DNA of 64,000 bases from Escherichia coli (GTDB lineage Bacteria > Pseudomonadota > Gammaproteobacteria > Enterobacterales > Enterobacteriaceae). The notes under the pieces were generated by a model, which saw only the letters and a list, made by a program, of their open reading frames with translations, was not told where the DNA came from and searched no databases. A program made the position numbers and the translations under genes. This document shows, one piece after another, positions 7,659-52,620 of the stretch (position 1 is the stretch's first letter; each line of letters begins with the position of its first letter). The DNA lies in the NCBI RefSeq assembly GCF_024223415.1, contig NZ_CP100500.1. The stretch is one strand, 5' to 3'.

Positions 7659-8951
7659 ATGGCACACCGCTACCTGACACGACAGGATCACAGGACCTTA
7701 TCTCTGGCTGCGCTCGGAGGCGCACTTGAATTCTATGACTTCATCATTTTTGTTTTTTTCGCCGCCGTCATTGCTGAGCTCTTTTTCCCGCCGGATATAC
7801 CGGAATGGCTCCGTCAGCTCCAGGCATTTGGTATATTTGCTGCCGGGTACCTGGCACGACCTCTCGGCGGAATAATTCTGGCCCATTTTGGCGATATACT
7901 TGGGCGAAAGAAAATGTTCACCCTGAGTATTTTGCTTATGGCAGTACCGACACTTGTTATCGGTATTTTGCCAACCTACAGCTCTGTGGGTACCCTGGCT
8001 CCTGTGCTGCTTCTTCTGATGCGTCTGCTTCAGGGCGCAGCGATTGGCGGTGAAGTGCCCGGTGCCTGGGTTTTTGTTGCTGAGCATGTACCGGAGCGCC
8101 GAACCGGTATTGCATGCGGAACACTGACAGCAGGTTTAACCGCCGGGATCCTGCTTGGTTCAGTGGTTGCCACACTTGTCAATTCAGTATTGTCTCAGGA
8201 TATTGTTTACGATTACGGCTGGCGATTCCCCTTCCTTCTTGGTGGTGTTTTTGGCCTGGCAGCAATGTACCTGCGCCGCTGGCTGGAGGAAACTCCGGTA
8301 TTTCTGGAAATGAAAGCCAGAAAAAAACTGGCTCAGGAATTACCGGTAAAAGCTGTCGTTTTAAGACATAAAAAAGCTGTTGTGATTTCCATGCTGTTGA
8401 CATGGCTGATATCCGCAGGGATTATTGTGGTGATACTGATGGCACCGGTCTGGTTACAGAAACAGTATGACTTTTCGCCGACAGTCACCTTACAGGCTAA
8501 CAGCATTGCAACTATTATGCTGAGTCTGGGATGCCTGCTGGCCGGTATGGCCATTGATTCTTTTGGTGCCGGAAAAACCTTTATATCAGGCAGTATTCTG
8601 CTTGGATGTTCAGGATGGCTGTTCTATCACACTGTCGGTGAGTATCCTGAAATGTTGTTCTGGCTGTATGGGCTAGCGGGATTCAGTGTGGGCATTGTCG
8701 GGGCCGTCCCTTATGTTCTCGTGCGTATTTTCCCCGCAGAGGTCAGGTTTACCGGCATTTCATTCTCTTACAATGTCGCTTATGCAGTGGTGGGGGGACT
8801 GACTCCTGTTGTGGTCACGATGTTAACGGAAATCTCCCCGATGGCTCCAGCATGGTATGTTATGCTGTTATCACTTGTGGGATCAGGACTGGGAATATGG
8901 TTCTGCAGGGATCCCCGTCTTTTTATCTGTCACGCAGACAAAGACAAATAA
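7659..8951 (+). CDS. MFS transporter, metabolite:H+ symporter family
   Basis: 12-TM-like hydrophobic profile with MFS motifs (GDILGRKK). Confidence 0.8.
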   Translation: MAHRYLTRQDHRTLSLAALGGALEFYDFIIFVFFAAVIAELFFPPDIPEWLRQLQAFGIFAAGYLARPLGGIILAHFGDILGRKKMFTLSILLMAVPTLVIGILPTYSSVGTLAPVLLLLMRLLQGAAIGGEVPGAWVFVAEHVPERRTGIACGTLTAGLTAGILLGSVVATLVNSVLSQDIVYDYGWRFPFLLGGVFGLAAMYLRRWLEETPVFLEMKARKKLAQELPVKAVVLRHKKAVVISMLLTWLISAGIIVVILMAPVWLQKQYDFSPTVTLQANSIATIMLSLGCLLAGMAIDSFGAGKTFISGSILLGCSGWLFYHTVGEYPEMLFWLYGLAGFSVGIVGAVPYVLVRIFPAEVRFTGISFSYNVAYAVVGGLTPVVVTMLTEISPMAPAWYVMLLSLVGSGLGIWFCRDPRLFICHADKDK

Positions 8952-38543: not shown

Positions 38544-38692
38544 CATTTTATCTGCCTGTACGGCAGTGAACATGGTGGGCGGGTGGAGTATGTTACCAGT
38601 GAATTTCTAAGCTGCCTGTACGGCAGTGAACGTTTGCTGCAACCGCTAGCCAAGACGGTAGGTTTTTCTAAGCTGCCTGTACGGCAGTGAAC
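38544..38692 (-). CRISPR. Orphan type I-F CRISPR mini-array (3 repeats, 2 spacers, no cas genes in window)
   Basis: Two exact copies of TTTCTAAGCTGCCTGTACGGCAGTGAAC (38604-38631, 38665-38692) plus a degenerate copy ending at 38571; spacers of 32-33 bp. Confidence 0.8.
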
Positions 38693-41637: not shown

Positions 41638-42554
41638 ATCATTTAGTTAATTAGTCTTTATTTTTCATTATGTTGCAAATAACAAGCCCGTCAAAAACAG
41701 TGATATTAACTACACCATTAACTACACCGCTTCACGAACAATATCGAACAACCGCGAACAAAGATCAACACGCTTTAATCATTATCATTTTCCGGCTATC
41801 CGTCATGAAGCTGGTGGATGATCTGCGTGGTGATTTCCACCATTCAGAGCAGGTGCGGTCATCATGACCATGCCATAACAAAAACCCCATATTCGTGGTT
41901 TTTCTGTGTCGGGGCTATTCTGCTGTTGCCGTGCTGGTGGATATTCTCCGGTATGCGGCTCCCCATATCGGCATCAGGCCCACCAGCGTGAAGCGTTTTT
42001 CATTTTTCGCGGGTATAAAAAATCGATGGGGCGGGCAGTCCTGAAGACGTCAGGGTACAGAGATTTGACCCGCCCCTCCCTGTGCATGAGCACAATAAGT
42101 AACCGAAGGCGGAATTCCGCCCTCGGTACTTACATATGAGAAACGATATTTCTTCCACCGATACCCTTTATTTGGGTATCGCGAGTAAGCCCCAAAATCT
42201 GGGTGTTACTCTTACTACCCAAACTACGGGTAGTTTCCGTAGTTTCATGGTCGAGTTGCAAATCTGCAACTCACCCACCAGCCAGCGCAATGTCGCATTA
42301 TCAGTCCTCAGATGTGAGGGATGTAGCCAGCTTTTCCCCCAGTGGGGATTATCCAGTTACCGACGGTTTAACCGCCTGTACCAGCACAACGAAAGAATTT
42401 GCGGGTAGCTTTAAACTACTCACAACATCCCATCTTACAGGCCGTGCCTTTCTAACTTTTTACAATGCAATAAGTCAGGTAACGCTATGCGTTCCACCGT
42501 GTACACCGCGCCAGTAAAACCCCCGGATTCGTGGTTTTCCTGAATATCAGGAAT

Positions 42555-45811: not shown

Positions 45812-47560
45812 CTATAAAAACGCGTCGCAGTCGTCTGTTGTTGTCACGTTGGTTTGCGTAACCCCTTTAATCCTGCGCGTTATATATTCATGTCCGTAAA
45901 CTTTCGCCGCTGGCTTCATGGCCTTGCTGAACTCAGCCACGTTCAGCGGTTTGCTCCTGCCTGCATACGCCATAAACGCCAGATAGACGCGGTAAAGGCT
46001 GTTTCTGGTCGTGTACTTCACGGAATCGCCACCGCCCCCCATCATCAGGCCACGTGCTTCCTCCAGAAAATTCAGGAACTGGCAAAACTCAATAACCGGA
46101 TCCGTTTGCTGCTTTATCGCCAGTGCTTCATCACCGTCACGCTGTTCCAGTAGTAAAGCCCGCGCCTTTTCAGGGTCTGCAAAGTTCGCCAGTAATCGGC
46201 GGATAATGACGGGGATTTCAGCCGCAATCCTTTCCGGTAGCTCCCTGTCTTTTTCAGCCTCACTGACGATATTGTCGAAACGAAAAATCACGCGACGACG
46301 TGCCACACCTCCGGCCCGTTCGGTGAATATCATCGGGTTATTGTTGGTCGCCAGCACCACCGCCCTGATTACAGCCGTGAAACGCTTTTCGTATTTCGGG
46401 TTAATTTCCACGGGGTCACCGCCCGTGATTTTCTTGATGCCCGTTCCTTCGCCTGTATATTTCGGCTGGTCTGCCAGGACGATAAGACGACTCCCGACAA
46501 CCTGCGCACGCCCACCAGCATCATCAAGCGATGTCATCTCAGCGCTTACCGTGTTCTGTTTCCCTGCCAGAAGGCTGGCTATGTGCGTGAATGTACTTTT
46601 ACCGCTCCCGCCGTCTCCGGTGGCCTCAATAAACATCTGCCAGTCGTACCGGTTCGCCATAATCATGTACAGCGCGGCACATATACGCATCATCTTGCGC
46701 GGGTCTTTTCCGGCTGCGTGCTCAAGCCATTTATGAAAGTTTGGCGCGTTATCGCGGATGTTCTCCCCAGGTGCTGGTGGCGTGTACTCAATGCCATTGT
46801 GCGTGGTGATCCAGTTCTCCGGCGTGTGCGGGGAAAATTCCCCCGTTTTCAGGTCAAGCGCACCATTGGCGAACGGCAGCAAATCGCCGGACGGCTCGCC
46901 CATTGGTTCGGCAATAACTTTTAACGCTTCCACGGCGTTATTGATTACGCGCTTGCTGAAAGTGGCCCTGTGCTCTGAATAGATCGCCACCATTTCGCGG
47001 CTCAGTTCCATTGTGCTGACCGGACACCATACCCCGCCGCGCCATACGTGAACGATTTCACTTTCCGGATGCACACAAACGCCATCAAATCGACCAGCAA
47101 GCATCTGTGCGCGCTCACTGTCTGCCATTTGTGCCAGTTGCGTATTTTTCTGCTCCGGCATGGTAAGCCCTGCAGCAATATTTTCACGCTCAGCATTCAG
47201 ATAACGCCGCCAGTTTTCACACTTCTGACCGTGCATTCCTTCGGGGTAAAAATTTGCGTCCTGTACGCCAGCCGCCGCCAGCTTCTGACCAATCGCCTTT
47301 ATCATTACTGGCGCAAGATATCCGGCCCTGAATATACGCACGGATTTTCTGCCTTCCGGCACAATTTGCAGCTTATCCAGTTCGGATAACTGCTGCTCCC
47401 CAAGCCACACAGGAGGCTCATTATCTCCGGCCATACGCGCGTCATGTTCCTGCCATTGTTTCGCGTGTGCCCAGGCATCACTACCCGCAAAAATAATGAC
47501 TTCAGTTCCTTTGTGTTTTATGCCGCGTGACTGCAGTTTTACGTTCGGTGCCAGTTTCAT
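45812..47560 (-). CDS. Replication protein with SF3-type helicase domain (P4-alpha/D5-like primase C-terminal region)
   Basis: Walker A ATGDGGSGKST and Walker B-like RLIVLAD in the C-terminal half. Confidence 0.8.
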   Translation of the reverse strand: MKLAPNVKLQSRGIKHKGTEVIIFAGSDAWAHAKQWQEHDARMAGDNEPPVWLGEQQLSELDKLQIVPEGRKSVRIFRAGYLAPVMIKAIGQKLAAAGVQDANFYPEGMHGQKCENWRRYLNAERENIAAGLTMPEQKNTQLAQMADSERAQMLAGRFDGVCVHPESEIVHVWRGGVWCPVSTMELSREMVAIYSEHRATFSKRVINNAVEALKVIAEPMGEPSGDLLPFANGALDLKTGEFSPHTPENWITTHNGIEYTPPAPGENIRDNAPNFHKWLEHAAGKDPRKMMRICAALYMIMANRYDWQMFIEATGDGGSGKSTFTHIASLLAGKQNTVSAEMTSLDDAGGRAQVVGSRLIVLADQPKYTGEGTGIKKITGGDPVEINPKYEKRFTAVIRAVVLATNNNPMIFTERAGGVARRRVIFRFDNIVSEAEKDRELPERIAAEIPVIIRRLLANFADPEKARALLLEQRDGDEALAIKQQTDPVIEFCQFLNFLEEARGLMMGGGGDSVKYTTRNSLYRVYLAFMAYAGRSKPLNVAEFSKAMKPAAKVYGHEYITRRIKGVTQTNVTTTDDCDAFL

Positions 47561-48052: not shown

Positions 48053-48340
48053 TTATTCATGGCTAACCACCTCCTGGAATTTTCTTCTGTAACGCGCCTC
48101 TGCCACATATTCAGCATAGTCCGACGCAATATTGAGAATATCGCTACCCGTTCCTGAATGTTCGGCGGTTTCCAGTAAAAAACATGCAGCTTTTACCATG
48201 TCAGCAACACATAACAGCGCAATATCTGTATCTTCCGGTGTGCCATCAAATTCCTGTTTCAGGGCATTAAAACGATCATCACGCATAACCCCATATTCAC
48301 AATCAGCAATCAGGATGGCTTTGGCCTCATTCAGTGCCAT
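48053..48340 (-). CDS. Hypothetical protein (~95 aa; only plausible part of the long ORF 48053-50041)
   Basis: C-terminal segment reads like protein while the rest of the 662-aa frame is low-complexity; start at ATG 48340 assumed. Confidence 0.35.
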   Translation of the reverse strand: MALNEAKAILIADCEYGVMRDDRFNALKQEFDGTPEDTDIALLCVADMVKAACFLLETAEHSGTGSDILNIASDYAEYVAEARYRRKFQEVVSHE

Positions 48341-49381
48341 ATCAGCGGTAAGCTGTGCGTAGGCCAGCAAATGCGGGATTATTGCCCCTGTATATTCCGG
48401 CTCTCTGATAATGTGGTCGGATGTGTTGATTAAATAGTTTGTGCGAAAAATGCACCTGTAACCATCAGTTAACAACGGATATACAGGGGGGACCATGAAT
48501 GATAAGGGGGTGCCGTTTGATGTGCTCCTGCAAAAGCTGAATGCTGCACGCGCCGCAAGGGAACGTGAGCGCATGAGTAATAACCCTGTCCCTCCTGAAT
48601 TACCTCGCCCTGAACATTTTCCGCTTGAGGATTTCATCAGGGGACGAATCCGAACAAAACGATAACCGCCGCCGTGATATGAGGCATCACGACGCAATGC
48701 ATTACAGGTGAGCACCATGAACAAATCCATATTATCCCCCACAGTTCTGGACGTAAACACAAAGCAGCGACAGATATTATTACGCGCCGTCATTAAAGCC
48801 AGACACGAGAAATTAAACCAAATCTTAAAATAAGATACGCCGCTACCGCTGTAAGTCTTCATCAGAAACAGAAAACGCCAGAGCAGATGAGCACGGAGGT
48901 AACTCTTTATGAAAATAAACGAATCAGGGGAAATTACCGAAGCCAGCGTGGTACGCCAGCGGAGGCGGGAACGACGGGTACGGCCCCCCGCGCCATCCGA
49001 TAATTTCCCGCTTGAGCGCTTCATCAGTGAACGGCCCCGCATACGCTGGAACGGCACAACCCCATACCCCGAGGAGAGACAGACAAAAAACAAACAGCGA
49101 TGATGAAATCTGGAGGCCAATACCATCACCCAGCCAGTCGGGGATTGCTGGCGGGCTTCCTGTTCGCTGGTGGCCCCGATGGTAATAACGCGTGGTTGTG
49201 CTGTGCTCAGGGCGATAAAACGCCAGATGTATTTATTCAGGTTGTGCGGGTCCCGCCCTTGCGGGTGTGTGGTATGATTTAACATAGCTACCTCGATACG
49301 CTTTCTATCGTTGGTGGTTAGAAGCCCCGTTACTGCTCCAACAGTGCGGGGTTTCGTCGTTTCTGCACCTTTCATCAACAA

Positions 49382-49435
49382 GGTGTTGAACACCAATTTA
49401 AGCCTAGGTGTTAAACACGCCAAGTGTTGAACACT
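49382..49435. promoter_or_regulatory. Three operator-like palindromes (GGTGTTGAACACC / GGTGTTAAACACG / AGTGTTGAACACT)
   Basis: Three 13-bp near-identical inverted repeats within 55 bp, in the regulatory region downstream of alpA. Confidence 0.5.
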
Positions 49436-50051
49436 TATTTTTTTTCCTGCATACTGCATTTGTTTTTTGTAAGGGGTACACAACATGGCGACAAAAGCAG
49501 TAAACGCAAAATCACAAACAGTTGCGGCAAGGGTTCCGCATGAAGTTATGAACAATGTTGAGGCGGTAAAAATGCCTGGTGAAAGTACAGGGCAGTTTGT
49601 AACAGCAGCATTAAAGCGAGAAGTTGAATACCGCCAGCGCCGCAAGGCCAAAGAATCAGAATAATCACTATCAGCGCCGTGGTGTGAGGTACTGCGGCGC
49701 ATTGTTTTAAAGGTGATAATTATGAATAACCAGGAACTACAAAATAAAGCATTATCAATTATCATGCGCCAGCGTGAGAAAACCCGCAGGGAAATAAATA
49801 AGGCATTAACCCGTACTGAAAATCTTAAAGTTCCTGATAAGTTCGCCCTTGATCCTTTTGTCGAGAAATACCCTCGGCGCTTAAAAGCAAACAAAAACCG
49901 CCCACCTGGCTGACAATCCACCAGCAAGCCACCACACTGGACACATTGCCCACCAGCCAGCAAATCGCTATGATGTTCGGGCTTATGTTTAGTGTTTTCC
50001 CATTGGCGACCGCCCCCGGTCGCCTTTGTTTTATGTGTCATATACTCCCCT

Positions 50052-50348
50052 TTACGCTGCCTTGCCTGAATTAATGCGATCCCGGCTTTTAACCCATTCC
50101 ATAACCTCGGACAGCAGCCAACCTACAGAACGCCCACCAAGATTACGGCGAGACGGAAAGCTCCCTTTTTTCTCCAGTTCGTAGCGTGTAGTGCGACACA
50201 CTCCAGTTAACTTACGACATTCATCCTCACGGATTACGCGATCTTCATTTATTTCACGCATACAAAAACCTACATAAAAATTACGTATATAAACTTTTCT
50301 CTTAGCTGTAGATATATGAGATCGGATATTACTTAGATTCTTTTTCAC
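50052..50348 (-). CDS. alpA: AlpA-family regulator/excisionase-like protein (start uncertain)
   Basis: …RKLTGVCRTTRYELEKKGSFPSRRNLGGRSVGWLLSEVMEWV… AlpA signature; the 50348 start is GTG. Confidence 0.6.
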   Translation of the reverse strand: MKKNLSNIRSHISTAKRKVYIRNFYVGFCMREINEDRVIREDECRKLTGVCRTTRYELEKKGSFPSRRNLGGRSVGWLLSEVMEWVKSRDRINSGKAA

Positions 50349-50680
50349 CTCTTAAATTAAAAACACAACCATGCTAAAGGCTTTGTTCGCTAAGGTTCGT
50401 AGAAGCTCGTTAGTGTTTAAAATCGTGTCACGAGTTTTTAAGCGACGCAACAAAAAATGTCGTCATTTGGCATGTCACCTGAATTACCTCATTAAAAACA
50501 AATAGATAAACCATCAGATGTTGGAACAATCAAGAAACAGAGAATAAGAACTCAGAAGAAGACATTTCAATTTTTTTCGATAGTTGACACATATAAAGAG
50601 AAGATATTTGCAGATATTCCCCGATATTCTAAGATCTATTCACGGCTGTAATCTCTTAAAGAAAAAACAGCCGTAATTTG

Positions 50681-51919
50681 TCAAGAATTTTGGGGGTAAA
50701 TTCGCGGGGTCATAACAACGATTTTTTCATCATTGTTCTGGAGAAGCTCGAGACGGTCTACCCATAGATTAAGAGCGTCACGCTTTGCATCGAGATAACG
50801 GGAGTGGTTATAGACGCGTTGCATTCCTGGCATCTGGTGGGCAGTAAGCTGTTCAACAATATGCGGATCCACGCCTAAATCGTTCAGCATGGTTGTAAAT
50901 GTGTGCCGGATGTCGTGCAACGACCAGGGGGCTTGATTAATGCGTCTGTGTGCCGTTCTTCCGTACTCTGCTACGGATGATTGCCCTTTCAGTTCTCCAA
51001 GCAATAAGCCCGTGTGCCTGTTCTGCTCCACCAGCTTCATGACGAACGGCAAGATCGCTTCCGGTATTGGCCTGAATATTGCTACCTTCGTTTTGCTGTG
51101 TTCTTTCGGCACAGTCCAGAGCATTTCTTTAAAATCCCATTCCCGAACCTCGGAGCGTCTTAGCTCAGTGGTACGGCATCCGAAGACAATCAGAAGGCGA
51201 ATTAAAGCGCTGTAGTACGGCGGGAAAATTTTTTCATCCAGTGCGCGGAGTAGCTCGCCAAGCTCCTTGTTTGTTAGCACTCGCTCGCTTATTTCTGCTT
51301 TTTTTCCCACATCACCTACGACCATATCATCAAGAACGTTACTGACGGCGTAGCGACGTTTACGGCAGTACTTAAGCGCCTGTTTGCATACCTGCAACAA
51401 AAAGCCGGCTGATACCGGATTACGCTTAGCAAGCTGGTCAAAACAGGCCAGCCAGTGGCGTAGCTCGCATTTATCCAGCGGCATAGCACCAATCTGGCTG
51501 ATTATGTGCTTATTGATACGGCTTTTCAGTGATTCGTGGTCAGTGCGCTTTTCCTTCGCATACGACTCAAGCCAGTAAGTGAGCGCGTCCTTAACCGTCA
51601 CGGGGGCTAACGCTTCCTGCACTGTGTGATTAAGCTCATGGCGTGGATTTTTCCCCTCCGCCAGCCAGGCGCGACACTGTGCCGCTTTTTCCCTGGCTGC
51701 TTTCAGGCTCAGATCGGGATAGTTGCCCAGTCTCAGGCGTTCCGGTGATACCTGCCTGCCAGTTCCGGCCCTGTAAGTGAAATACCAGGTTAACAGGCCG
51801 CTGGTGGAATGTCTTACGCTAAGATTGCCACCGTCATTAAAAAAGGCGTTTTTTGTGGTTGGTGATCCGCTTAATTTTCGTAAAAGAGTGTCGCTAAGTC
51901 TATGAATTGCGCTGCTCAT
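50681..51919 (-). CDS. int: Tyrosine-type site-specific integrase
   Basis: C-terminal catalytic region with …LHDIRHTFTTML… and …VYNHSRYLD…; hairpin 50644-50676 downstream. Confidence 0.9.
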   Translation of the reverse strand: MSSAIHRLSDTLLRKLSGSPTTKNAFFNDGGNLSVRHSTSGLLTWYFTYRAGTGRQVSPERLRLGNYPDLSLKAAREKAAQCRAWLAEGKNPRHELNHTVQEALAPVTVKDALTYWLESYAKEKRTDHESLKSRINKHIISQIGAMPLDKCELRHWLACFDQLAKRNPVSAGFLLQVCKQALKYCRKRRYAVSNVLDDMVVGDVGKKAEISERVLTNKELGELLRALDEKIFPPYYSALIRLLIVFGCRTTELRRSEVREWDFKEMLWTVPKEHSKTKVAIFRPIPEAILPFVMKLVEQNRHTGLLLGELKGQSSVAEYGRTAHRRINQAPWSLHDIRHTFTTMLNDLGVDPHIVEQLTAHQMPGMQRVYNHSRYLDAKRDALNLWVDRLELLQNNDEKIVVMTPRIYPQNS

Positions 51920-52085
51920 GTTTCGCGTTTCCGGTCATCAAAATTAACTACACCATTGACTACACCGTGCATCGTACAAGGGCAAACCGTGACGAACAAG
52001 AGCGAACAAGTAAAACAAAATTTTCCTTTATAATCATAGCGATGAATGCACACAAAACACTACCACGAACACCCGCGAACACTAG

Positions 52086-52107: not shown

Positions 52108-52323
52108 CGTTGGCATCAGCGACATCTGTCACATTCCTGTCAATAGCGTTAACTGCTTCAAATTTTTGATTCATACCTGCCCCCTGTCCCCTGTCAAATG
52201 CTTGACGGCTCGCCCTAATTCTCTAAATTGTATTTCTAGAGTTGGCGAGGTTTTGAACAGCCCCCTCTCTGACCCCGGTTTATTCCATCTTACTTGTATA
52301 AGATTTGCGAAGGATGTCGAAGC

Positions 52324-52548
52324 ATGGAAAAGGGTACTGTTAAGTGGTTCAACAATGCCAAAGGGTTTGGTTTCATCTGCCCTGAAGGCGGCGGCGAAGA
52401 TATTTTCGCTCATTATTCCACCATTCAGATGGATGGTTACAGAACGCTAAAAGCTGGACAATCCGTTCAGTTTGATGTCCACCAGGGGCCAAAAGGCAAT
52501 CACGCCAGTGTTATTGTGCCCGTCGAAGTAGAAGCGGCAGTCGCATAG
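52324..52548 (+). CDS. cspD: Cold-shock-domain protein CspD
   Basis: MEKGTVKWFNNAKGFGFICPEGGGEDIFAHYSTIQMDGYRTLKAGQSVQFDVHQGPKGNHASVIVP matches CspD. Confidence 0.9.
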   Translation: MEKGTVKWFNNAKGFGFICPEGGGEDIFAHYSTIQMDGYRTLKAGQSVQFDVHQGPKGNHASVIVPVEVEAAVA

Positions 52549-52620
52549 CTCTTCTGTCTCATTGTGTACATCCTAAAGGCAAAATGCCAGCCCGATCGGC
52601 TGGCATTTTTATCTCAAAAA

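What the first reader, a model, noticed from the sequence alone, without database searches (positions are those of the whole stretch)
48341..50051. Regulatory region of the satellite with paralogous small ORFs, operator palindromes and a misleading 662-aa ORF
The minus-strand 662-aa ORF is compositionally implausible except for its last ~95 codons. On the plus strand there are small candidate genes: two tandem paralogues sharing the motif FPLE.FI..R.R (about 48490-48663 and 48909-49103), a 59-aa ORF at 49486-49665, and 49713-49913. Three 13-bp operator-like palindromes sit at 49382-49435. This may be the island's repressor/derepression switch, or a small toxin-antitoxin or anti-phage peptide module.
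Basis: inference. Interest (0 to 1): 0.4.

Follow-up and report, generated by a model that had tools for sequence, protein, structure and literature searches.

The report
Stop-free bridge ORF across satellite switch
In this E. coli phage-satellite island the giant "implausible" reading frame is not an accident: selection keeps it free of stop codons, most likely so that ribosomes can follow transcription from the activator gene alpA, backwards through a small repressor-operator module, into the replication genes, as phage P4 does with its eta/kil genes.

Summary
The plus-strand small ORFs exist, two of them are paralogues, and three GTGTTNAACAC operators sit at 49383-49434. The region lies between alpA and the replication genes of a ~10-kb PICI-type satellite.

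On the plus strand there is a ribbon-helix-helix (YlcI/YnfO-type) repressor candidate. Its operators co-vary with the repressor allele in sister islands. There are also members of an Escherichia-only small-protein family with the motif F[AP]LE.F.

The 662-aa frame is not a chance artefact. In 29 of 42 sister-island clusters the whole alpA-to-icd interval has no stop in the icd frame. Other frames carry 5-7% stops per codon. All opposite-strand genes are phase-locked, wobble position facing wobble position, and they avoid antisense stops at synonymous sites. The frame starts 10 nt after the alpA stop, behind a strong Shine-Dalgarno sequence.

This is the architecture of P4 eta/kil. The best explanation is a translated bridge ORF that protects alpA read-through transcripts from Rho-dependent termination. 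That function is inferred, not shown. I rate it a new variant of a known kind.

The parts
50052..50261 (-). alpA, the activator/excisionase-type HTH gene, immediately upstream of the bridge ORF
   Evidence: PF05930 Phage_AlpA, E 4.8e-16. PGAP CDS in the identical record NZ_CP182371.
50541..50570 (-). Candidate alpA promoter (TTGAAA-18-TATTCT)
   Evidence: Consensus scan only. AlpA-autoactivated and helper-induced in other PICIs, according to PMC6092414 and PMC11773190.
50039..50051 (-). Shine-Dalgarno AGGGGAG and the ATG of the bridge ORF. The ATG lies 10 nt after the alpA stop (TAA at 50052-50054).
   Evidence: Sequence. The same context TAA-AGGGGAG(C/T)ATATGACACATAAAACAAAG is found in nearly all sister clusters. 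1-nt indels in the spacer leave the downstream frame open.
48053..50041 (-). The 662-codon stop-free frame. It is a composite of bridge segment 1, the nested icd/kil-like gene, bridge segment 2 and the phrog_2512-family gene, all in one frame.
49286..50041 (-). Bridge segment 1 (252 codons). It runs antisense to the plus-strand terminator, the F[AP]LE.F gene, the RHH gene, both promoters and the operators.
   Evidence: No family hit. There are zero stops in this frame in 29 of 42 sister clusters.
49100..49285 (-). Nested Icd/Kil-like gene. It has its own SD (GAGGT, 49290-49294) and ATG (49285). The domain spans 49106-49231. Its usual stop is missing in this island.
   Evidence: NF033153, E 8.8e-14, and phrog_6196, E 2.9e-44. 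The PGAP start is conserved in E2865, where the gene is 68 aa and has a stop. P4 Kil hits the same model.
48497..49099 (-). Bridge segment 2 (201 codons). It runs antisense to the second, partly decayed plus-strand module.
   Evidence: No family hit. The segment occurs in only 9 of 5426 complete E. coli genomes, all at least 99.9% identical. It is absent in E2865.
48053..48496 (-). phrog_2512-family gene of unknown function. Homology reaches 48421. Candidate ATGs lie at 48496 and 48340, and neither has a clear SD.
   Evidence: phrog_2512, E 6.7e-49, profile positions 32-153 of 154. There is a 154-aa homologue directly after icd in E2865.
49485..49664 (+). Ribbon-helix-helix protein of the YlcI/YnfO family, the candidate island repressor
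49383..49434 (.). Three operators GTGTTNAACAC at 49383-49393, 49408-49418 and 49424-49434, centres 25 and 16 bp apart. They sit between hand-proposed back-to-back promoters: leftward -35 TTGGCG 49423-49418 and -10 TAAATT 49400-49395; rightward -35 TTGAAC 49427-49432 and -10 CATACT 49450-49455.
   Evidence: The motif co-varies with the RHH allele, and a conserved GTCAAG (TTGAC on the minus strand) lies next to O2 in sister islands. The promoters are inferred and fall below the scan threshold.
49324..49352 (.). Conserved hairpin between the operators and the icd SD. A T-run follows it on the plus strand.
   Evidence: Compensatory stem changes across alleles. Its role has not been determined.
49674..49700 (+). 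Hairpin with a T-rich tail after the RHH gene. It is part of a repeated 55-nt leader (49675-49729, copy at 48670-48724).
   Evidence: Terminator-like site. Repeat D1. The same element precedes small genes in L004.
49722..49913 (+). Member of the F[AP]LE.F small basic protein family (63 aa, function unknown)
   Evidence: PGAP CDS. Family alignment and HMM. 106 protein clusters, Escherichia/Shigella only, no Pfam domain.
50005..50024 (+). Intrinsic terminator of the plus-strand unit (GGCGACCGcccCCGGTCGCC followed by TTTGTTTTAT). On the minus strand it has no U-run.
   Evidence: The hairpin is conserved in sister islands.
48495..48665 (+). Distant F[AP]LE.F paralogue (56 aa, motif FPLEDFI)
   Evidence: HMM E 3.7e-5. 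Repeat D5 links its 5' part to the 3' end of the RHH gene.
48717..48890 (+). Nonsense-disrupted F[AP]LE.F-type gene. It has two in-frame TAA codons, one replacing the Glu of the motif.
   Evidence: Translation. 44% identity, E 5e-14, to the intact 67-aa L004 protein. The minus frame stays open across it.
48909..49103 (+). Distant F[AP]LE.F paralogue (64 aa, motif FPLERFI)
   Evidence: HMM E 4.1e-4. Repeat D3.

Best explanation
The region is the zone between alpA and the replication genes (the 'Bro zone' position) of a Gram-negative PICI-type satellite. It holds two interleaved units on opposite strands.

Plus strand, the maintenance unit:
- A ribbon-helix-helix repressor of the YlcI/YnfO type.
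- Its three operators, which lie over back-to-back promoters.
- A small F[AP]LE.F protein.
- An intrinsic terminator.

Minus strand, the induction path:
- An ATG 10 nt after the alpA stop opens a frame with no stop codon.
- The frame runs antisense through the whole maintenance unit and into the nested Icd/Kil-like gene.
- In this island it continues through a second, decayed module into the next gene.

The polypeptide of the bridge is irrelevant. What selection keeps is the absence of stops.

Proposed mechanism (inferred): when a helper phage switches on the alpA promoter, ribosomes coupled to alpA translation follow RNA polymerase across about 0.75 kb of otherwise untranslated antisense RNA. 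This prevents Rho-dependent termination, including any terminator inside the icd/kil body, as in P4. Read-through carries transcription past the repressor-controlled promoter into the icd-primase operon. Convergent transcription would at the same time damp the repressor unit.

Shown: the anatomy, the conservation, the selection against stops, the phase locking, and the operator/repressor covariation. Inferred: transcription from P-alpA through the region, translation of the bridge, any role of Rho, and repression by the RHH protein.
For: 1. The frame is conserved.
- In 29 of 42 sister-island clusters, the interval from the alpA stop to the icd start has 0 stops in the icd frame. These intervals are 445-1597 nt long and carry different gene content. 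The other two frames have 7-38 stops each.
- Two more clusters are fully open in another frame. Most of the rest end 5-33 nt before the next same-strand ORF, or overlap it.
- In total there are 0 stops in 12,533 codons, of which 2,441 have no mutual blastn similarity. The other same-strand frames carry 5.3% and 6.7% stops per codon. The same antisense phase of ordinary genes carries 3.3%.

2. The opposite-strand genes are phase-locked.
- Every credible opposite-strand gene sits in the one relative frame where third codon positions face each other. This holds for the RHH alleles, the F[AP]LE.F genes and a SWIM zinc-finger gene.

3. Antisense stops are avoided at synonymous sites.
- The codon before Tyr ends in a pyrimidine in 1 of 34 cases. 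The codon before His/Gln ends in T in 1 of 178 cases.
- In ordinary genes the rates are 59% and 25%. The binomial P values are 4e-12 and 2e-21.
- All three gene groups show the effect: 1 observed against 35 expected, 0 against 15, and 1 against 14.5.

4. The plus frame carries the amino-acid selection.
- Substitution rates rank pos2 < pos1 < pos3 in the plus frame, and BLOSUM scores are higher in the plus frame.
- So the bridge is selected for openness, not for its sequence.

5. A dead plus-strand gene (48717-48890) has acquired stops while the minus frame stayed open.

6. The start context is conserved directly after the alpA stop (SD AGGGGAG, then ATG).

7. The architecture is that of P4.
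- P4 eta (8168-8767) starts in an ATGA overlap with the stop of vis, the alpA homologue.
- It carries Phage_ASH and then, nested in frame, an Icd-like Kil.
- The 596-aa bridge ORF of sister island L004 carries Phage_ASH at aa 423-544.
- Sister islands carry isrK and C4 RNAs on this strand.
[quoted passage not shown] - The P4 Rho-dependent terminator t_imm maps to 8365-8209, which is the kil body (PMC3177188).
- The window's icd RNA is C-rich: 31.7% C against 22.6% G.

8. In EcCICFT073, expression of a reporter fused to the gene after alpA requires alpA (PMC6092414).

9. The repressor assignment rests.
Against: - There are no expression data of any kind: no RNA-seq, Ribo-seq or Rho-inhibition data for this island.
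- Outside icd the minus-strand RNA is not C-rich and G-poor. It has C 21.7-23.8% and G 23.8-27.0%, so there is no obvious rut signature there.
- A few sister islands have 1-3 stops in the best frame, and one (L054) has no bridge ORF at all.
- In 29 of 42 clusters the bridge is fused in frame to icd. This is also what a functional Eta-like fusion protein would predict. Many of these clusters share the same conserved icd-proximal segment, so they are not independent events.
- YlcI/YnfO homologues in lambda, DLP12, Qin and BP-4795 also have few stops in the same antisense phase (0, 0 and 1). Part of the signal in the RHH genes may therefore be intrinsic to the family. Those controls offer only 16 informative sites and are near-identical to one another.
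- The promoters I propose fall below the consensus-scan threshold.
- The sister islands are nearly all from Escherichia, so shared ancestry inflates naive P values.
Confidence: 0.6

Rival explanations
1. The long frame encodes a functional Eta/Bro-network-type protein. The polypeptide itself matters, for example as an N-terminally extended Icd/Kil. It overlaps the small plus-strand genes as a true dual-coding region.
For: - The frame is fused in frame to the Icd-like gene in 29 of 42 clusters.
- L004's version contains a Pfam Phage_ASH domain.
- PGAP calls fragments of such frames 'BRO-N domain-containing' or 'ash family' pseudogenes.
- Mageeney et al. treat this zone as encoding Bro-network proteins (PMC10111431).
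Against: - The window's frame has no Pfam, NCBIfam or PHROG hit outside the icd and phrog_2512 parts.
- Bridge sequences share no similarity between islands that carry different plus-strand modules. 2,441 codons are mutually unalignable.
- Substitution patterns and BLOSUM scores favour the plus frame.
- In several clusters the bridge ends before icd, in another frame.
- A 1-nt indel variant (L007) shifts the frame, and the ORF simply ends at the next gene's start.
- The composition is Cys-rich and nearly Glu-free.
Confidence: 0.15
2. The open frame is a passive by-product of the composition or codon usage of the plus-strand genes, or of chance. It has no function, as the first reader assumed when calling it 'misleading'.
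For: - The small basic proteins have few Tyr, His and Gln residues, so only about one antisense stop per gene is expected.
- Phage YlcI homologues also show few antisense stops.
Against: - Intergenic, promoter, operator and terminator segments are open too. They total 627 nt in the window alone.
- All plus-strand genes share one phase across spacers of different length.
- Stop-making codon pairs are depleted roughly 30-fold relative to ordinary genes.
- Unrelated gene content, such as a SWIM zinc-finger gene or four tandem small genes, is open as well.
- The other two frames carry 5-7% stops per codon.
Confidence: 0.04
3. The plus-strand small ORFs form a toxin-antitoxin or anti-phage peptide module. 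An RHH antitoxin is paired with a small toxin or effector, and this is the main function of the region.
For: - The downstream small gene is always paired with the RHH gene.
- Satellites often carry defence cargo (general knowledge).
Against: - No PADLOC, Pfam, NCBIfam or PHROG toxin or defence family matches any small ORF.
- The RHH gene and its operators sit exactly over the divergent promoter of the icd-primase operon. That is the position of an element repressor.
- The F[AP]LE.F proteins are 56-82 aa, highly basic and without a recognisable fold family.
- Some islands have the RHH gene alone (L013, L031, L037, L044).
Confidence: 0.1

Closest known systems
Phage-satellite P4 eta/kil nested genes with the Rho-dependent terminator t_imm. 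Source: Forti et al. 1999, J Bacteriol 181:5225, which I could not read here. I rely on its summary in PMC10111431 and on the t_imm coordinates in PMC3177188.
   Same: - A long ORF starts at the stop of the alpA/vis homologue. In P4 this is an ATGA overlap; here the ATG follows 10 nt later with a strong SD.
- A short Icd/Kil-like gene with its own start is nested in frame at the 3' end.
- It sits upstream of the primase operon, and a second, immunity-controlled promoter lies inside the long ORF.
- In P4, translation of the long ORF lets transcripts from the upstream promoter escape termination.
   Different: - The window's ORF has no Phage_ASH domain and no CI/C4 or isrK RNA.
[quoted passage not shown]
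- The ORF is 252 codons long before icd, against 134 in P4.
- It is antisense to two real genes, which are phase-locked to it.
- In this island the icd stop is lost, so the frame runs on for 662 codons.
Phage P1 immI operon c4-icd-ant. This comparison comes from memory and was not checked here.
   Same: An Icd-family leader gene whose translation is needed for transcription to reach the downstream genes, because of Rho polarity. The window's gene matches the same Icd-like family model.
   Different: P1 controls icd translation with the C4 antisense RNA. No C4 RNA is found in the window. P1 has no long upstream bridge ORF and no alpA.
The 'Bro zone' of Gram-negative PICIs (Mageeney et al. 2023, PMC10111431) and AlpA-controlled induction (Fillol-Salom et al. 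2018, PMC6092414)
   Same: - The region sits between the integration genes (int, alpA) and the replication genes (DUF4222, primase, SSB), and its content is highly mosaic.
- AlpA-dependent expression of the gene after alpA has been reported for EcCICFT073.
   Different: - This zone contains no Bro-N, KilA-N or ANT domain protein.
- Its genes are on the opposite strand.
- Neither paper, as far as I read them, describes a selected stop-free antisense frame or an RHH repressor. Fillol-Salom et al. state that a global repressor in Gram-negative PICIs is unclear.
Ribbon-helix-helix phage and plasmid repressors (Arc/Mnt of P22, omega, CopG)
   Same: - Several closely spaced short palindromic operators over divergent promoters.
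   Different: - Sequence similarity to solved RHH proteins is insignificant. The best hit is Arc at E 0.79.
- DNA binding has not been tested.
- The family name YlcI/YnfO comes from uncharacterised lambdoid prophage genes.

Membership tests
P4 eta/kil-type nested ORF system | The long ORF is translationally coupled to the stop of the upstream vis/alpA homologue. | tested here: met
   The ATG at 50041 lies 10 nt after the alpA TAA and follows the SD AGGGGAG. This context is conserved in sister clusters. In P4 the eta ATG overlaps the vis stop.
P4 eta/kil-type nested ORF system | A short Icd/Kil-like gene with its own start is nested in the same frame at the distal end of the long ORF. | tested here: met
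   NF033153 matches aa 271-312 of the 662-aa frame, with its own SD and ATG at 49285. P4 Eta aa 146-193 hit the same model. The window differs in that the icd stop is missing and the frame continues.
P4 eta/kil-type nested ORF system | A Phage_ASH (PF10554) domain in the long ORF. | tested here: not met
   The window's ORF gives no Pfam hit at E <= 1. The domain is present in P4 Eta and in sister island L004.
P4 eta/kil-type nested ORF system | The CI/C4 immunity RNA and its target (seqA/isrK) are embedded in the long ORF. | tested here: not met
   No C4 or isrK hit in the window, even with permissive filters. Both are present in 10 of 20 sister loci scanned.
P4 eta/kil-type nested ORF system | Translation of the long ORF suppresses Rho-dependent termination (t_imm in kil), so that upstream-promoter transcripts read through. 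| not testable with these tools
   Only indirect support: selection for an open frame and a C-rich icd RNA.
Gram-negative PICI (phage-inducible chromosomal island) | A small island with co-oriented int, alpA, primase and packaging gene(s), lacking phage structural and lysis genes. | tested here: met
   The genes int, alpA, DUF4222, primase, SSB, PerC, ProQ/FinO and TerS all lie on one strand between clpS and yljB/cspD. A 15-bp direct repeat flanks about 10.25 kb.
Gram-negative PICI (phage-inducible chromosomal island) | Induction and mobilisation by a helper phage. | not testable with these tools
   No experimental data exist for this island.
Ribbon-helix-helix (CopG/Arc/MetJ) DNA-binding repressors | A beta-strand, helix, helix fold. 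| tested here: met
   [not shown]
Ribbon-helix-helix (CopG/Arc/MetJ) DNA-binding repressors | Binds repeated short operators at its own or a neighbouring promoter. | tested here: inconclusive
   Three operators, with a motif that co-varies with the repressor allele across more than 10 alleles. There is no binding assay.
Type II toxin-antitoxin or known anti-phage defence system | A recognisable toxin or effector family next to the RHH gene. | tested here: not met
   No significant PADLOC, Pfam, NCBIfam or PHROG hit for the F[AP]LE.F ORFs.

The most novel reading that the evidence does not exclude
A translated ORF whose only selected property is the absence of stop codons serves as a ribosome 'escort' for RNA polymerase. 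It is threaded antisense, wobble position against wobble position, through a repressor operon, its operators and its terminators. AlpA-driven transcription can then override both the repressor and Rho, and switch on a whole family of E. coli satellites. The icd/operator core of this module is found in about 27% of complete E. coli genomes. The ribbon-helix-helix protein encoded on the opposite strand would be the long-sought repressor of Gram-negative PICIs.
Probability: 0.45. Interest if true: 0.72.

Novelty: new variant of a known kind. Interest (0 to 1): 0.62.

Why it matters
1. It would be an unusually clean natural example of selection acting on the act of translation rather than on the protein. 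A frame of 200-660 codons is kept open across unrelated sequence, and real genes on the other strand adjust their synonymous codons to fit.

2. It offers a concrete, testable model for a stated gap. Fillol-Salom et al. (2018) wrote that a repressor of Gram-negative PICIs is unclear. Here there is a candidate RHH repressor with allele-specific operators, and a route by which AlpA could bypass it.

3. It explains recurrent annotation errors:
- a 410-aa 'Icd-like protein';
- 'ash family' and 'BRO-N' pseudogenes;
- small genes that go uncalled in about a quarter of E. coli genomes.

4. It links PICIs and P4 mechanistically through the eta/kil device, although the two have been described as evolving independently.

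Tried and rejected
- **Rfam.** Scans of the region, both at gathering thresholds and with permissive filters, found no C4, isrK or other RNA family in the window. RNA-based immunity of the P4 type was therefore rejected for this island, though it is present in sister islands.
- **Candidate icd start at 49375.** I rejected it because the ATG is not conserved in E2865, while the ATG at 49285 and its SD are.
- **Genome-contig scan with AlpA.** It returned one irrelevant locus, so the scan was wasted.
- **tblastn of the window's RHH protein against phages.** No match.
- **Control with YlcI/YnfO from DLP12/lambda, Qin and BP-4795.** It has too few informative sites to be decisive: 0, 0 and 1 antisense stops.
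- **Sequence search of solved structures.** Only Arc, at E 0.79.
- **Consensus promoter scan.** It did not report the divergent promoters I infer from conservation.
- **Base composition.** It does not show a C>G (rut-like) bias in the bridge segments, only in icd.
- **Forti et al. 1999.** The paper could not be retrieved. Its content is cited second-hand.
- **Comparative test of the second module (48497-49099).** This was impossible, because all nine E. coli copies are at least 99.9% identical.
Full report
**Context**

The window is E. coli chromosome. A satellite of about 10 kb lies between clpS and yljB/cspD. All of the following genes are on the minus strand:
- int, 50681-51919
- alpA, 50052-50261
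- a DUF4222 gene
- a primase, 45812-47560
- SSB, PerC, ProQ/FinO and TerS genes

A 15-bp direct repeat, ATTAACTACACCATT, at 41705 and 51943 probably marks the island ends. This is the gene order of Gram-negative PICIs: integration, 'Bro', replication and late zones (PMC10111431). In these elements AlpA is the helper-induced master activator (PMC6092414, PMC11773190). The finding covers the zone between alpA and the replication genes.

**Checking the observation**

- The 662-aa minus ORF at 48053-50041.
- The plus-strand ORFs at 48495-48665, 48909-49103, 49485-49664 and 49713/49722-49913.
- Three GTGTTNAACAC sites at 49383-49393, 49408-49418 and 49424-49434. These are the only three in 64 kb, with 0.05 expected by chance.
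- The paralogy. The motif DNA repeats (D2/D3). An HMM built from the wider family in sister islands hits both ORFs, with E 3.7e-5 and 4e-4. The family also includes the 49722 ORF, so the motif generalises to F[AP]LE.F[LVI].
- The odd composition of the long frame: Cys 3.6-4.0% and Glu 0-1.6% in the two bridge segments.

Two points needed correction:
An Icd-like domain (NF033153, E 9e-14; phrog_6196, E 3e-44) lies at about 49357-49103. A conserved SD (GAGGT) and ATG sit at 49285. PGAP annotates a 410-aa 'Icd-like' CDS from this ATG.
- Homology of the terminal gene to phrog_2512 extends to 48421, not just the last 95 codons.

A further ORF, 48717-48833, is a nonsense-disrupted family member.

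**The plus-strand unit**

In sister islands the gene at this position is always an RHH-type allele. The intergenic region always carries two or three copies of a short repeat whose sequence changes with the allele:

| Island | Operator motif |
|---|---|
| L008 | GTGTTTCATG / CATGAAACAC |
| L010 | TGTGCGCACA |
| L026 | TGGATTCCA |
| L031 | GTGTCAGCCAC |
| L049 | TGGTACGTACCA |

The flanking elements do not change: GTCAAG (TTGAC on the minus strand) and a (T/C)ATACT -10 element. This covariation is good comparative evidence that the RHH protein binds these operators. It also suggests that the operators overlie back-to-back promoters, one for the RHH gene and one for icd. The promoters themselves are my inference and fall below the scan threshold.

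A hairpin with a T-rich tail follows the RHH gene at 49674-49700. A strong terminator at 50005-50024 ends the unit just before alpA.

The F[AP]LE.F proteins form about 106 clusters at 90% identity. All are from Escherichia or Shigella, all are 'hypothetical', and none has a Pfam domain. No defence or toxin model matches them. Their function remains unknown.

**The surprise: the long frame is conserved**

A sequence-divergent island, L004, has a 596-aa frame with the same start peptide, MTHKTKAT. It runs antisense through four annotated small genes into its Icd-like gene. I fetched 49 IMG/VR loci with close AlpA homologues and reduced everything to 42 clusters.

- In 29 clusters the entire interval from the alpA stop to icd has no stop in the icd frame. 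These intervals are 445-1597 nt long and have very different content. The other two frames have 7-38 stops.
- Two further clusters are open in another frame.
- In most of the rest, the ORF ends 5-33 nt before the next same-strand ORF or overlaps it. Only L054 lacks a bridge.
- Pooled, the frame has 0 stops in 12,533 codons, of which 2,441 have no detectable similarity to one another. The other frames have 5.3% and 6.7% stops per codon. The same antisense phase of 29 ordinary genes in the window has 3.3%.

**Why this is selection and not a by-product**

- Every credible opposite-strand gene lies in the single relative phase where third codon positions face each other. This holds across spacers of different length.
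- In that phase an antisense stop arises only from NNY-TAY (Tyr) or NNT-CAN (His/Gln).
- Among 35 small genes with at most 80% amino-acid identity to one another, the stop-making arrangement occurs at 1 of 34 Tyr sites and 1 of 178 His/Gln sites.
- In ordinary genes the rates are 59% and 25%.
- The depletion is seen separately in the RHH group, the F[AP]LE.F group and the remaining genes.
- Substitution rates (plus-strand pos2 < pos1 < pos3) and BLOSUM scores show that amino-acid selection acts on the plus frame.

So the bridge is constrained only to stay open. In the window itself the decayed gene at 48717-48890 has gained two plus-strand stops, while the minus frame remains open. For the window alone, synonymous recoding gives P(no antisense stop) of 0.25, 0.28, 0.84 and 0.26 for the four genes. 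A further 627 nt of the frame lie in no gene at all.

**How the frame begins and ends**

The sequence TAA-AGGGGAG-(C/T)ATATG places a strong SD immediately after the alpA stop, with the ATG 10 nt downstream. This context is nearly invariant, and 1-nt spacer indels do not disturb the downstream frame.

In this island the usual icd stop is absent. Relative to E2865, where a 68-aa icd abuts a 154-aa phrog_2512 gene, a 755-bp segment (48357-49111) has been substituted. The segment contains a partly decayed paralogue of the RHH-3'-end / leader / F[AP]LE.F module (D1 and D5). It occurs in only 9 of 5426 complete E. coli genomes, and it is also open on the minus strand. A near-identical locus, L007, carries a 1-nt indel, and there the frame ends just after the next gene's ATG.

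From alpA to the end of the primase gene, the minus strand has no untranslated gap longer than about 30 nt.

**Comparison with what is known**

P4 itself shows the same device:
- Eta (8168-8767) starts in an ATGA overlap with the stop of vis, the alpA homologue.
- Eta residues 22-146 are Pfam Phage_ASH.
- Eta residues 146-193 hit the Icd-like model. These residues are Kil, nested in frame.

L004's bridge ORF has Phage_ASH at residues 423-544. Ten of twenty sister loci carry isrK and/or C4 RNAs on this strand.

Mageeney et al. summarise the P4 mechanism as follows. [quoted passage not shown] Its translation prevents termination, so the late promoter reads through (PMC10111431, citing Forti et al. 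1999, which I could not retrieve). The Rho-dependent terminator t_imm maps to P4 8365-8209, which is the kil body (PMC3177188). The window's icd RNA is correspondingly C-rich. In EcCICFT073 a reporter fused to the gene after alpA needs alpA for expression (PMC6092414).

The window's frame is therefore an eta-type ORF, but a variant:
- It has no ASH domain.
- It has no immunity RNA.
- A protein repressor unit is encoded antisense inside the ORF.
- The overlapping genes are phase-locked to it.

**Proposed mechanism**

In the quiescent state, the RHH protein would hold the divergent promoters, including the icd-primase promoter. Upon helper induction, P-alpA fires. Ribosomes pass from alpA to the bridge ORF and accompany RNA polymerase through the antisense unit and the operators into icd and beyond. 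This would prevent Rho-dependent termination, while convergent transcription would lower repressor expression.

Only the anatomy, the conservation and the selection are shown. Transcription, translation, Rho involvement and repression are all inferred.

**Caveats**
- There are no expression data.
- The bridge RNA outside icd is not C-rich and G-poor.
- Some islands carry stops.
- In-frame fusion to icd is also compatible with a functional fusion protein.
- The sister islands share ancestry.
- Phage YlcI homologues have few antisense stops as well, although that control has only 16 informative sites.

**Verdict**

The interpretation 'regulatory switch' is supported. The 'TA/anti-phage module' reading is not supported. 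Calling the ORF 'misleading' misses the main point. I classify this as a new variant of a known kind, the P4 eta/kil translation-dependent read-through device, transplanted onto a protein-repressor switch in PICIs. The core module (icd plus operators) is present in 1453 of 5426 complete E. coli genomes.

Noticed in passing
window 38544-38692 (-): Three CRISPR-DR4 (type I-F) repeats at 38544-38571, 38604-38631 and 38665-38692, downstream of clpA. They look like a tiny orphan array.
   Followed up: no
window 1-64000; 41705-41719 and 51943-51957: ARAGORN finds no tRNA or tmRNA gene in the window, so the island is not at a tRNA site. A 15-bp direct repeat, ATTAACTACACCATT, flanks about 10.25 kb between clpS and yljB/cspD and is the likely att core.
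   Followed up: partly
window 49324-49352 (and the invariant CTAACCACCAACGATAG on the minus strand, about 49303-49322): A hairpin between the operators and the icd SD is kept by fully compensatory changes across sister alleles. Examples are CCCCGC/GCGGGG, CCCGGC/GCCGGG and GGCUGGAAAGGA/UCCUUUCGCAGCC. A T-run follows it on the plus strand, where it looks like a terminator. On the minus strand an invariant 17-mer follows it. Its role is unknown.
   Followed up: partly
L004, L015, L019, L020, L022, L023, L026, L034, L052, L054 (coordinates): Sister islands carry isrK and/or C4 antisense-RNA genes on the alpA/icd strand, some of them inside the open bridge frame. This means related islands use either P4-type RNA immunity or RHH protein immunity. 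Some, such as L020 and L034, appear to carry both.
   Followed up: partly
L057 (phage P4) 8168-8767 (-): The RefSeq P4 record still annotates a 137-aa 'cI gene product / transcriptional repressor' CDS. This explains the PHROG label 'transcriptional repressor' on Icd/Kil-like proteins. Eta (199 aa) is not annotated in the record.
   Followed up: yes
window 45812-47560 (-): The island's primase gene has a 246-codon stop-free run in the same antisense phase. This is the longest such run among the ordinary genes of the window.
   Followed up: no
L055 6252-6446; L058 601-828; lambda ~48111-48302: YlcI/YnfO homologues sit on the strand opposite to the late operon, just upstream of the terminase genes, in lambda, DLP12, Qin and Stx phages. 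In several lambda records the gene is unannotated. They too have almost no stops in the wobble-facing antisense phase.
   Followed up: partly
window 52219-52612 (+): A sub-threshold Rfam match (41.6 bits against a gathering score of 78) of the cspA thermoregulator model over cspD and its leader.
   Followed up: no
L002 3341-3788; L056 3042-3297; L004 2592-3143: PGAP annotates pieces of the bridge frame as pseudogenes ('hypothetical', 'BRO-N domain-containing', 'ash family'). In the record identical to the window it calls a 410-aa 'Icd-like protein'. These are systematic annotation artefacts of the open frame.
   Followed up: yes
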